A model generated the notes under the pieces. It did not search any database, was not told the origin of the DNA, and worked only from the letters and a program-made list of their open reading frames with translations. From assembly GCA_964016885.1 (NCBI GenBank), contig OZ024743.1, forward strand, positions 3,286,001 through 3,350,000: 64,000 nt of DNA. Reading direction: 5' to 3'. The position numbers and the translations under genes were made by a program. The stretch comes from Eledone cirrhosa. Taxonomy: Eukaryota. This document shows, piece after piece, positions 54,704 through 64,000 of the stretch (positions are counted from its first letter, which is position 1; every line of letters begins with the position of its first letter).

Positions 54704-55846
54704 GATATATATATATATATATATATATATATATATATATATATATACATATATATATATATATATATATATATATATATATACATATATATACATATAT
54801 ATATATATATATATATATATATATATATATATATATATATATATATATATATATATATACATATATATATATATATATATATATATATATATATGTATAT
54901 ATATGTATATATATATATATATATATATATATATATATGTATATATATATATATATATATATATGTATATATATATATATATATATATATATGTATATAT
55001 ATGTATATATATATATATATATATATATATATATATATGTATATATATATATATATATATATATATATATATATATGTATATATGTATATATATATATAT
55101 ATATATATATGTATATATATATATATATATATGTATATATATATATATGTATATATATATATATATATATATATATATATATATATGTATATATATATAT
55201 ATATATATATATATATATATATATATATATATATATATATATATATATATATATATATATATATATATATATGTATATATATATATATACATATATATAT
55301 ACATATATATATACATATATATATATATACATATATATATATATACATATATACATATATATATATGTATATATATATATATACATATATATATACATAT
55401 ATACATATATATATATGTATATATATATATATACATATATATATATATATATATATATATATATATATATATATATATGTATATGTATATATATATATAT
55501 GTATATATATATATATGTATATATATATGTATATATATATATATATATGTATATATATATATATGTATATATATATATATATATATATATATATATATAT
55601 ATATATGTATATATATATGTATATATATATATATATGTATATATATATATATATATATATATGTATATATATATGTATATATATATATATATATATATAT
55701 ATATATATATATATATGTATATGTATATATATATATATATATATATATATATATATATATATATATATTTATATATATATGTATATATATATATATATAT
55801 ATATATATATATATATATATATATATATATATATATATATATATAT
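54704..55846. repeat. ~1.14-kb interrupted (TA)n tract abutting the Naiad 3' end
   Basis: Direct reading. Confidence 0.95.
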
Positions 55847-55896
55847 AAAATATTAAACAAATAATGAACAAACAATTCCTTATATTAAACAAAAAA

Positions 55897-56053
55897 AGTT
55901 CACTATTTAACGATCGTTTCTAGGGTATATATGTGTTATAATTGGTATGCATATTTAACAGATCTATGTACAAAATTATACAAAATTATACAAATTATCA
56001 AGATTAAATATACATACCCAACTCATATATACGCCGTCTTCAGAAATAATGAA
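55897..56053 (-). ncRNA. Hammerhead ribozyme with giant helix II (copy 3, subfamily B; sense to the Naiad ORF)
   Basis: Reverse complement of 63391-63545. Confidence 0.75.
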
Positions 56054-58947
56054 GTATATTTATTGATAATAACAACAATTCAAAATATCAGTTCAAAATT
56101 GACCAATGAAAACACAAAGGGTTAAAAGCAGTTTGGTGTGTGTATATACATGTAAAAACCTTACACATATTTTACAATAATGTGTGTATAATTTGTATGT
56201 GCATACTAAAAAGATGGATGCAAACACAAAATTTCAAGGTTAATATCTCTGTAAGCTTAATGCGCTGATAAGATACGCAATGATACTTATGGAGTCAAGC
56301 ATATAAATATATTTTTTTCATACTCACACATATCAGTATAATCACACGTACATGTGCGTATATGCATAAATATACACATAATCACGAACATACAAACACA
56401 CACACTCCCCCACTCACATTTATATATGTGTATATAAAATCATAAGCAAATAGAAATTAAGTCACTCACATAAAAACACTGGTACACACATTTCAAGATC
56501 AAGATACAGAAATTAGGTGGGAGGGGGGGGGGGGAGGGGTCAGTATTAGATTGTCAGACCAGACTGCCTAATATAAATGTATCTATAAATTAAGAAAAAT
56601 AAAAAAATAAAAACAATAAAATATAATAAAAATAATGTAATGTACATACACATACAGATATACATACACATACATACATGTACGCGCACATAGAGATATT
56701 TACACATACATACATACACACATACCTATACAGTCATACACACACATACATTTACACGAACATACACATACACATATAAAAAGATATAAATACACACACA
56801 CTCACGCGCAACACATACACACATACACATATATATATATATATATATATATATATATATATACACACACACATAGACTCATATATATATATATATACAT
56901 ATACATATATATATACAAACATATATATCCACACACTCATACCACCATAAATACACATACAAACACCCACATGTATATATATATATATATACACACACAT
57001 CCACATACACACACGTACACATATATATATATATATACATATATACACATACATATATATATATACACACACATAAAAAACAGACATGCACATATATATA
57101 TATATATATATATTTCATTACTCTTATATATACACATAGTATATATACATACACAACCTCACTTATACACATATACACATAAGTTATATTACAATAATAA
57201 TAAAGAATAATATATATATATATATATATATACACATATACATATATACATATATATATATATATACATACATACATACACATACATACATACACATAAA
57301 TATATACATACATAAATACACACATACGAATAAAGACATATATTCACACATAGACACCTATATACACATATATATATATATATATATATATCTATATATA
57401 TACAAACACGCATATATATATATATATATATATATACATACAAACACGCATATACATATACATACATATATACACATATATATATTCCTATATACAAGCA
57501 TACACATACATACACATATATACATATACATACACATATACATACCACACATTCACATACACATACATATATAATACATATATATACATATATATACACA
57601 TACATATGTATGTACATCATATATACACACTCAATCTTACATTCATATTTACATGCTCATATATGTATTTTTATATTTAGAAATAAATACCAAAACCTAT
57701 ATAGACACCCACCTACACATATATTCATACATATACGCTTACAAAAACAGATGATAATAGTATGGGGGAAAGGGGGGGTTTGGAGAAGGGGATCAAAGTA
57801 AATATATGTTTCAAGAAACATATAATATTTTCCGTATCTTAATTCAATGTATGTTCTTACATATTTTCAGTGCTAGGAAATACGAAATCTATGCATCTCA
57901 AAATAAAAAAGTATACCATTAATCATATGTTAACTAAACCAAAGATAGTCAACATATTGATTTCCAAGGTGTAAATTAGTTAGGTTTATAATATTTGAAG
58001 CAGAATTATGAAGTCAAACAGTAGTAGATTATTAATTACATTATAACTAAATTAAAGTTAATAACGTTATGGTATCAATATTAGGAGATGAATTTAGTAA
58101 TAGGGAAAAGAAACCCAAATAAAAATAAAATAAAGTATTACATCGGTAGTAGCATATAAATTATATGTTAACTAAATTAAAAATTATATATTTATTTCAA
58201 TAGTATACGTTAATTAGTATATGTTAATTAGGTATACAATACATAAAGCAGATATTGTATTTCATCAATAGCATAATATAATTATATGCAAATAAAAATC
58301 AAAATTAATACGCATACATATACATATACATACACATACACATACATATACATATACACACATATATATATATATATATACATATATATACACATATATA
58401 CATATATAGTCACATAAATATACATACAGATACACATACAACACACACATATATATATACATATAGATATACATATCTTTTTCAAAAAATTGCACAGAAT
58501 ATATTAACTAGGTATATATCCAAAACACATCCCATTCTATGATTACATGACATTCTGCAATTCGTCTGTACAAGGATACTAATTTTAAGCAAATTAAAAT
58601 TAAAGTTTTAGGTTGATTAAAACCAAAACCAAATAATAAATATATTTCCAAAATGTATATTAATTAGGTCTATAATACTAAAAATTCTTTCTCCGTCATA
58701 GGATACATGATATTATTTTGTTATATTTTATCTGTAAAAGAATTATAATAAAAAAAATTATAATAAAAGGTTAAAATAAATTAAAATTAATCTATAAATT
58801 AAATTACTGAGTATATATTAGTAATATTTAAAGGTTTTTCAAAATTTATGATTACATAATATTTTCTCATCTGTAATAAAATATTAATTAAATTAAATTT
58901 ATAGGTTAACTAACATTTAAATTAAATTAAATTCTAGAATAATGTTA

Positions 58948-61374: not shown

Positions 61375-63390
61375 ATAACGTTATTAACTTTAATTTAGTT
61401 ATAATGTAATTAATAATCTACTACTGTTTGACTTCATAATTCTGCTTCAAATATTATAAACCTAACTAATTTACACCTTGGAAATCAATATGTTGACTAT
61501 CTTTGGTTTAGTTAACATATGATTAATGGTATACTTTTTTATTTTGAGATGCATAGATTTCGTATTTCCTAGCACTGAAAATATGTAAGAACATACATTG
61601 AATTAAGATACGGAAAATATTATATGTTTCTTGAAACATATATTTACTTTGATCCCCTTCTCCAAACCCCCCCTTTCCCCCATACTATTATCATCTGTTT
61701 TTGTAAGCGTATATGTATGAATATATGTGTAGGTGGGTGTCTATATAGGTTTTGGTATTTATTTCTAAATATAAAAATACATATATGAGCATGTAAATAT
61801 GAATGTAAGATTGAGTGTGTATATATGATGTACATACATATGTATGTGTATATATATGTATATATATGTATTATATATGTATGTGTATGTGAATGTGTGG
61901 TATGTATATGTGTATGTATATGTATATATGTGTATGTATGTGTATGCTTGTATATAGGAATATATATATGTGTATATATGTATGTATATGTATATGCGTG
62001 TTTGTATGTATATATATATATATATATATATGCGTGTTTGTATATATATAGATATATATATATATATATATATATGTGTATATAGGTGTCTATGTGTGAA
62101 TATATGTCTTTATTCGTATGTGTGTATTTATGTATGTATATATTTATGTGTATGTATGTATGTGTATGTATGTATGTATATATATATATATATGTATATA
62201 TGTATATGTGTATATATATATATATATATATATTATTCTTTATTATTATTGTAATATAACTTATGTGTATATGTGTATAAGTGAGGTTGTGTATGTATAT
62301 ATACTATGTGTATATATAAGAGTAATGAAATATATATATATATATATATATGTGCATGTCTGTTTTTTATGTGTGTGTATATATATATATGTATGTGTAT
62401 ATATGTATATATATATATATATGTGTACGTGTGTGTATGTGGATGTGTGTGTATATATATATATATATACATGTGGGTGTTTGTATGTGTATTTATGGTG
62501 GTATGAGTGTGTGGATATATATGTTTGTATATATATATGTATATGTATATATATATATATATGAGTCTATGTGTGTGTGTATATATATATATATATATAT
62601 ATATATATATATATATATGTGTATGTGTGTATGTGTTGCGCGTGAGTGTGTGTGTATTTATATCTTTTTATATGTGTATGTGTATGTTCGTGTAAATGTA
62701 TGTGTGTGTATGACTGTATAGGTATGTGTGTATGTATGTATGTGTAAATATCTCTATGTGCGCGTACATGTATGTATGTGTATGTATATCTGTATGTGTA
62801 TGTACATTACATTATTTTTATTATATTTTATTGTTTTTATTTTTTTATTTTTCTTAATTTATAGATACATTTATATTAGGCAGTCTGGTCTGACAATCTA
62901 ATACTGACCCCTCCCCCCCCCTCCCACCTAATTTCTGTATCTTGATCTTGAAATGTGTGTACCAGTGTTTTTATGTGAGTGACTTAATTTCTATTTGCTT
63001 ATGATTTTATATACACATATATAAATGTGAGTGGGGGAGTGTGTGTGTTTGTATGTTCGTGATTATGTGTATATTTATGCATATACGCACATGTACGTGT
63101 GATTATACTGATATGTGTGAGTATGAAAAAAATATATTTATATGCTTGACTCCATAAGTATCATTGCGTATCTTATCAGCGCATTAAGCTTACAGAGATA
63201 TTAACCTTGAAATTTTGTGTTTGCATCCATCTTTTTAGTATGCACATACAAATTATACACACATTATTGTAAAATATGTGTAAGGTTTTTACATGTATAT
63301 ACACACACCAAACTGCTTTTAACCCTTTGTGTTTTCATTGGTCAATTTTGAACTGATATTTTGAATTGTTGTTATTATCAATAAATATAC

Positions 63391-63545
63391 TTCATTATTT
63401 CTGAAGACGGCGTATATATGAGTTGGGTATGTATATTTAATCTTGATAATTTGTATAATTTTGTATAATTTTGTACATAGATCTGTTAAATATGCATACC
63501 AATTATAACACATATATACCCTAGAAACGATCGTTAAATAGTGAA
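63391..63545 (+). ncRNA. Hammerhead ribozyme with giant helix II (copy 4, subfamily B; in the inverted pseudo-LTR)
   Basis: uucauuauuu CUGAAGA-[116 nt hairpin]-GAAAC GAUC GUU aaauagugaa; 10-bp helix I. Confidence 0.75.
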
Positions 63546-64000
63546 CTTTTTTTGTTTAATATAAGGAATTGTTTGTTCATTATTTGTTTAATATTTTATC
63601 TTGACTCTGTATACCGTTTATCTTTCACCGAAAGTGGATTTTCATTACATCTCTTCTTTCCATGATATCCGGAATACATTGAGTTCTTCATACGGATTGG
63701 ACACTACCGTAAACTCTTGGTAGATTTATCTACATATATATATATATATATATATATATATGTATATGTATATATATATGTATATATGTGTATATATATA
63801 ATATATATATAATATATATATATATATATATATATATAAGCCAGGACTATCCATCATCAGTGGTCTACTAGCCATCATAGGTATTTCTTCGCATTACAGA
63901 CCATATATCTCAAGCTAGGGAAATACAATAACTAAATTAAGTTATTGGGATAAAAAGAATTGGGTGGAGAAAGAGAGACAGGTAAACAAACACGAATGGA

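What the first reader, a model, noticed from the sequence alone, without database searches (positions are those of the whole stretch)
55845..63735. Intact Naiad retroelement with 2.2-kb inverted terminal arms
Seen: an uninterrupted RT-GIY-YIG frame flanked by reverse-complement arms (55845-58070, 61375-63599) that appear to differ only in simple-repeat lengths. The inversion junction is the 10-bp palindrome ataacgttat, placed just upstream of the N-terminal SLKNIPIPS motif. Each arm ends in the giant HHR pointing outward, so read-through RNA from either strand could be cut, and a transcript would form kb-long dsRNA. Inference: a very recent insertion from an active family and a plausible trans-mobiliser of the small HHR elements nearby.
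Basis: partly seen in the sequence, partly recalled or inferred. Interest (0 to 1): 0.75.

Follow-up and report, generated by a model that had tools for sequence, protein, structure and literature searches.

The report
Young Hydra-clade Penelope inverted insertion
This is a front-truncated copy, missing its start codon, of a young and abundant jumping gene of a known kind (Hydra-clade Penelope-like, not Naiad); its mirror-image arms are the normal layout for this family, and their one-long, one-short ends suggest the element's RNA is likely copied twice, once from each cut DNA strand.

Summary
The arms are real: 2,221 matched bases, no substitution, three simple-repeat indels. Two parts of the reading fail. 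The protein has a C-terminal endonuclease and the Hydra-clade motifs, so it is not a Naiad. It is not intact: it lacks the 288-nt leader and the first four codons; 37 of 38 sister ORFs have the ATG.

The family is young: median 7 substitutions in 2,430 nt, and 33 of 38 ORFs are whole. Inverted arms are its norm. In 27 of 27 two-ended inverted insertions exactly one end carries a 137-nt tail. The two arms share one donor, and the junction palindrome is at chance level. This fits priming from both target strands at two RNA sites better than fold-back. The layout is in print, and this scan already reported the one-tail rule on other DNA.

Mild variants are a hammerhead with a 116-nt stem II, the long tail and a 6-kb unit. 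No support for trans-mobilising the small hammerhead elements nearby.

The parts
54705..55844 (.). Interrupted (TA)n tract, left target flank (about 1.14 kb)
55845..58070 (-). 3' 2.2 kb of the sense copy (left arm); it stops at the fixed 'short' end, without the tail
55899..56053 (-). Type I hammerhead-like motif of the sense copy, with a 116-nt stem II (predicted, not assayed)
   Evidence: mirror of 63391-63545
58071..58947 (-). Part of the 3.3-kb 3' UTR that is not duplicated
58948..61377 (-). Hydra-clade RT plus C-terminal GIY-YIG ORF; uninterrupted but 5'-truncated (no leader, no ATG, first four codons missing)
61374..61385 (.). Inversion junction: 3-nt microhomology at 61375-61377; the palindrome 61375-61384 is native element sequence
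61375..63599 (+). Inverted, 5'-truncated second copy (right arm)
63391..63545 (+). Type I hammerhead-like motif: 10-bp stem I, CUGAAGA, 116-nt stem II, GAAA, 2-bp stem III with a palindromic loop, predicted cut after 63535
63600..63736 (+). 137-nt tail (the first 137 nt of the next unit's leader), ending at the fixed 'long' end; present only once in this insertion
63623..63633 (+). First of two copies per unit of a small hairpin motif; the second lies beyond the long end and is not in this copy
   Evidence: unit positions 24-34 and 151-161
63737..63838 (.). (TA)n tract, right target flank

Best explanation
This is a single recent insertion of a Hydra-clade Penelope-like retrotransposon into a (TA)n tract: a sense copy that lacks its leader and start codon, joined head to head with an inverted copy that carries a 137-nt tail, and it was likely built by two separately primed cDNAs. 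Shown: the anatomy, the two fixed 3' ends 137 nt apart, one of each per insertion, unrelated inner breakpoints, short microhomology at the join, and a common donor for both arms. Inferred: the GIY-YIG endonuclease cuts both strands of the (TA)n target. Each 3'-OH primes reverse transcription at one of two internal sites on RNA from one donor locus, probably by an RT dimer and possibly marked by two small hairpins. Both cDNAs stop early and are joined by microhomology-mediated end joining. This copy probably cannot express itself; the tandem full-length copies elsewhere are the likely sources.
For: (1) Of 35 mapped insertions, 27 had an inverted arm and both ends in view. All 27 have exactly one long and one short end: 18 with the tail on the inverted arm, 9 on the sense end. 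(2) Position-based check: 10 of 12 listed short ends on C1 up to 103 Mb have an outward-facing exact long end within 12 kb, against a chance rate of 0.015 each. An 11th has a 98%-identical long end, and the only long-long pair is two separate insertions. (3) In this copy the tail exists once, on the inverted arm, so that arm cannot have been copied from the sense strand. (4) The inner breakpoints coincide within 20 nt in 1 of 29 junctions. (5) Mean microhomology is 1.9 nt in 17 clean junctions against 0.85 by chance, p = 5e-4. (6) The terminal 640 nt of the two arms are identical in 13 of 17 insertions, against 2% of 272 cross-insertion pairs. (7) PMC11167929 reports two RT start sites bounding the tail, cleavage and extension of both strands, and a predicted dimer for a Poseidon element.
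Against: No biochemistry exists for this family. The 35 maps came from the best-matching ORFs (40 scored of 2,457 candidates), so they are biased to young, long copies. Three of the 35 have no inverted arm, one of 12 short ends had no partner within 10 kb, and one junction is a true fold-back (beside an assembly gap). 15 of 32 junction rows had extra or unresolved bases and were left out of the microhomology test. Arm identity could also come from two RNAs of one donor or from gene conversion. The hairpin motif was defined after seeing the two sites, and it lies 24 and 14 nt from the two ends, not at one fixed distance.
Confidence: 0.72

Rival explanations
1. Self-priming (fold-back) at a palindrome, on an antisense template, made the inverted arm (the model of PMC3846280, and the sense of the first reader's junction palindrome).
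For: A 10-12-bp palindrome does sit at this junction. One sister junction is a true hairpin with a 4-nt offset. Identical arms are expected under this model.
Against: The palindrome is native sequence. Palindromes of 10 bp or more occur at 2 of 32 junction rows, one of them a (TA)n run at an unresolved junction, against a 4.4% background; the chance of at least one in 28 is 0.71. The breakpoints here are 3,305 nt apart, and the tail on the inverted arm has no template in the sense copy.
Confidence: 0.08
2. The inverted unit was transcribed and moved as a whole from a donor that already had this structure, or the arms were homogenised later by gene conversion.
For: Arms within an insertion are far more alike than arms between insertions.
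Against: None of the other 30 fetched ORF-start contexts carries this junction. Junctions differ among all independent insertions; the only repeat is internal to one complex insertion.
Confidence: 0.1
3. Two independent insertions into the same (TA)n tract in opposite orientation.
For: (TA)n targets read the same on both strands, and the family is abundant: 8,444 long-stem motifs.
Against: There is no (TA)n at the junction, the arms have 0 substitutions between them while the nearest other copy differs by 5 in 640 nt, and 27 of 27 insertions pair one long with one short end.
Confidence: 0.04
4. Assembly artefact (chimeric palindromic read).
For: No contig or read spanning the junction was listed, where only part of the records is shown.
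Against: A 3.3-kb unique spacer, three indels between the arms, a tail on one side only with the family's exact end, and the same layout with different junctions at 26 other loci.
Confidence: 0.04

Closest known systems
Hydra clade of C-terminal-EN Penelope-like elements (Craig et al. 2021, PMC8557442; abstract, passages, section 11 and parts of the supplement seen)
   Same: RT followed by GIY-YIG; RW(R), DKT, CxCX5C linker, CxxC and CxH around the conserved E and N; hammerhead near the 3' end; (TA)n target. An attached inverted 5'-truncated copy is noted for Penelope-13_HM.
   Different: The unit is 6,060 bp with a 3.3-kb microsatellite-rich 3' UTR, against generally under 3 kb. Stem II spans 116 nt, against short stems and loops in all the Hydra rows of File S2. 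The tail is 137 nt, against 30-40. It is not Hydra-1_Obim (different sequence by eye).
Naiad clade (PMC8557442)
   Same: pLTRs, inverted 5'-truncated copy, one-sided tail, (TA)n bias
   Different: Naiads have an N-terminal EN, DKA and CCHH, and lack canonical hammerheads. This element has a C-terminal EN, DKT and a hammerhead motif.
Poseidon element PAc of Anolis (Frangieh et al. 2024, PMC11167929; first two of four parts read)
   Same: Two fixed 3' ends bounding a tail; AT-rich target; hammerhead near the ends
   Different: Different clade. The PAc start sites lie inside the ORF, with a 30-40-nt tail; here they lie in the leader, 137 nt apart. In the parts read, the paper does not explain inverted arms by paired priming.
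Adineta vaga Penelope insertions (Arkhipova et al. 2013, PMC3846280; passages and Discussion read)
   Same: Direct plus inverted pLTRs, a tail on one of them, microhomology at 5' junctions
   Different: There the palindromic junctions are taken as self-priming; here palindromes are at chance level and the breakpoints are unrelated.
[quoted passage not shown]
   Same: Core, extra nucleotide after position 9, short palindromic helix III suited to dimers
   Different: Very long stem II; no G10.1-C11.1 pair directly before GAAA

Membership tests
Naiad | GIY-YIG endonuclease N-terminal to the RT | tested here: not met
   YRDD at residue 343, IVYKC at 689 and YIGAT at 704
Naiad | DKA motif | tested here: not met
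   DKT at 112
Naiad | No canonical hammerhead | tested here: inconclusive
   A hammerhead-like motif is present, but its core junction is non-canonical
Hydra clade | Single ORF, RT with C-terminal GIY-YIG | tested here: met
   813-aa ORF in sister copies; motif order
Hydra clade | RWK-type N-terminal motif and DKT | tested here: met
   RWR at 34 (RWK in 9 of 12 aligned homologues) and DKT
Hydra clade | CxCX5C linker | tested here: met
   Starts at residue 670 and is conserved in alignment A1
Hydra clade | [quoted passage not shown] | tested here: met
   CxxC at 768 and CxH at 796; absence of CCHH judged by eye on alignment A1
Hydra clade | Insertion into (TA)n | tested here: met
   Outer ends of all 27 two-ended insertions abut TA repeats
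Hydra clade | Canonical hammerhead near the 3' end | tested here: inconclusive
   Core, stem I and stem III are present; stem II is unusually long; only 1 of 40 predicted pairs shows a two-sided change; no assay
Hydra clade | Placement inside the clade on an RT tree with reference sequences | not tested
   Published Hydra proteins were compared by eye only
Intact autonomous copy | Leader and start codon present | tested here: not met
Trans-mobiliser of nearby small hammerhead elements | Shared terminal sequence with non-coding partners | tested here: not met
   5 of 7 regions have no match better than E 0.02; the 2 that match belong to a sister subfamily with its own ORF, 82-88% identical

The most novel reading that the evidence does not exclude
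Penelope-like elements insert by obligatory paired priming: an RT-endonuclease dimer cuts both target strands and starts two cDNAs on one RNA at two hairpin-marked sites, so every inverted insertion gets exactly one tail. This family, with many whole ORFs, sites 137 nt apart and a long-stemmed hammerhead, is a ready system to prove it.
Probability: 0.5. Interest if true: 0.58.

Novelty: new member of a known kind. Interest (0 to 1): 0.3.

Why it matters
The element and its inverted layout are of a known kind, so the locus itself is ordinary. Its value is as evidence and as material. How Penelope-like elements form inverted repeats and one-sided tails is named as open in PMC8557442. The strict pairing of long and short ends seen here argues for two-primer insertion and against fold-back. 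The family also offers many whole, nearly identical ORFs of a clade for which my searches listed no biochemical study.

Tried and rejected
Pfam found no family above cut-off for the ORF. The solved-structure search gave one weak RT hit (retron Ec83, E 0.008). Rfam listed no hammerhead among the best 150 of 219 matches; those shown were sub-threshold hairpin and microsatellite matches.

Sequencing runs: no RNA holder was listed, which says nothing about expression. Laying four runs on 60000-61750 showed deep coverage and the normal start-codon context as loose ends, but no listed record bridged the junction; most records were not shown. The junction, the full span and polymorphism therefore remain untested by reads.

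The junction palindrome as a mechanism was rejected. Different (TA)n tract lengths at long and short ends were not significant (medians 24 and 78, p = 0.18, n = 27). Covariation in stem II is weak: 1 of 40 pairs in 28 related sequences, and the core was fixed by the search pattern. Target-site duplications cannot be read inside (TA)n. The second hairpin could not be checked in the sister subfamily. The protein query was mistranslated by an off-by-one error and was ignored; the DNA results of that call stand. The first arm comparison had edge artefacts and was redone. Naiad, Neptune and Nematis assignments were rejected on motifs.

Full report
Observation. The arms 55845-58070 and 61375-63599 are reverse complements over 2,221 bases, with no substitution and three indels in simple repeats. 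Between them the minus strand holds an open frame of 810 codons, 58948-61380. Each arm has a hammerhead-like motif facing outward. The stem II region folds well (z -4.9), and the constrained hammerhead fold lies 1.3 kcal/mol above the minimum for the trimmed sequence.

Identity. The order is RT then GIY-YIG, with RWR, DKT, a CxCX5C linker, and CxxC and CxH near the C-terminus. Section 11 of PMC8557442 gives these as the marks of the Hydra clade; Naiads have an N-terminal endonuclease. The published Hydra proteins show the same motifs by eye; I built no tree. The best named homologue is from Argonauta (42% identity over the RT), so a cephalopod host is likely (inference).

Not intact. A tandem array on C2 gives a unit of 6,060 bp with a 288-nt leader before the ATG. 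The window copy starts 14 bases into the ORF region (unit position 302), so the leader and the first four codons are gone. A stop precedes the frame, and the first ATG is codon 22. Of 38 sister ORFs examined (some from the same arrays), 37 have the ATG and 33 also reach 810 aa or more. They differ from the window by 2-15 substitutions in 2,430 nt, median 7. These are the best matches of 2,457 candidates. Genome-wide there are 217 exact start contexts and 8,444 long-stem hammerhead motifs of this and sister subfamilies, with 0 for the control pattern. The family is therefore young and abundant. Present activity was not tested.

Architecture. The stretch 63600-63736 is the first 137 nt of the unit: a tail carried by the right arm only. 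I mapped 35 insertions. Four had one end outside the fetched DNA, one had an assembly gap at the arm end, and three had no inverted arm. The remaining 27 all have one long (tailed) and one short end in (TA)n: 18 with the tail on the inverted arm and 9 on the sense end; a few ends are trimmed or variant. In a position-based check, 10 of 12 short ends paired with an exact long end, one more with a variant long end, and one had none within 10 kb; the single long-long pair was two insertions. Five of five fetched pairs of the older sister subfamily also show the tail on one arm by blastn. Inverted copies and a one-sided tail are described in PMC8557442 and PMC3846280.

Mechanism. Fold-back predicts coinciding breakpoints and no sequence in the arm that the sense copy lacks. 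Breakpoints coincide in 1 of 29 junctions, and here the tail exists only on the arm. The palindrome is native sequence and at chance frequency. Clean junctions show more microhomology than chance (17 of 32 rows used, p = 5e-4). The two arms are identical over the last 640 nt in 13 of 17 insertions, against 2% of cross pairs, so they share a donor. The simplest reading is two cDNAs primed from the two target strands at two fixed RNA sites and joined at their unfinished ends. This extends the two start sites, both-strand activity and predicted dimer reported for PAc (PMC11167929). A small hairpin motif occurs exactly twice per unit, 24 and 14 nt beyond the two ends. It was defined after the fact, following a lead from earlier scan notes. 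One search for Penelope with 'twin priming' listed only an unrelated review, and one search listed nothing beyond the papers above, judged from listings.

Hammerhead. The motif matches the minimal, dimer-type hammerheads of PLEs (PMC4209133) but has a 95-116-nt stem II, longer than any Hydra row in File S2 of PMC8557442, and no G10.1-C11.1 pair before GAAA. Most changes keep the pairing, but only one pair covaries on both sides. In an inverted insertion each strand has one motif, and a transcript through both arms would pair them into dsRNA, so cleavage of read-through RNA is doubtful (inference).

Trans-mobilisation. The stubs at 27095-27430 and 10800-10985 are 73-82% identical to the family's end. 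Their subfamily has its own, now broken, ORFs of 82-88% identity, so they are best read as truncated copies of an older wave. Five other small hammerhead regions share no sequence with the ends. Recognition by structure alone is not excluded.

Verdict. A real, recent, 5'-truncated insertion of a new Hydra-clade family in the known inverted layout. This scan has already reported the one-tail rule and twin priming on other DNA, in this genome and others; I tested it independently here. Interest 0.3.

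Noticed in passing
window 11637-13813 (-): A second, broken Hydra-type PLE ORF (47% identical over 417 aa), with a short hammerhead motif at 13913 (+) just upstream, probably its inverted end
   Followed up: partly
window 981-2417 (-): Another PLE ORF fragment with RVT_1 and C-terminal GIY-YIG hits, and a hammerhead motif at 590 (-)
   Followed up: partly
window 33392-34692: 312-bp hammerhead-bearing repeat in three tandem copies plus an inverted copy; retrozyme-like, with no sequence shared with this family
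   Followed up: partly
window 28220-28540 and 42700-43020: Small fold-back elements, each with two outward-facing hammerhead motifs; the first abuts (TA)n
   Followed up: no
window 27095-27430 (+) and 10800-10985 (-): Stubs of the older sister subfamily (stem II of 101 and 95 nt, GUA triplet); the first is tailed, the second is not
   Followed up: yes
window 20747-22519 (-): PIF1 helicase frame of 591 aa, probably a Helitron fragment (recalled association)
   Followed up: no
window 14283-15463 (+): Broken mariner-type transposase (Transposase_1 hits)
   Followed up: no
L037, L038, L039, L046 and others: A subfamily whose unit is about 600 bp longer near unit position 5,040-5,080 in the 3' UTR
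   Followed up: no
L072 + L033 (C1 near 397.22 Mb): The one true fold-back junction (4-nt offset) lies beside an assembly gap and may be an artefact
   Followed up: partly
window 54705-55844; also beside the insertions in L077, L080, L090: Interrupted (TA)n tracts of 1-2.8 kb next to some insertion ends; no significant link to end type
   Followed up: partly
L041, L087: Junctions with short inserts that look locally templated (19 and 38 nt)
   Followed up: no
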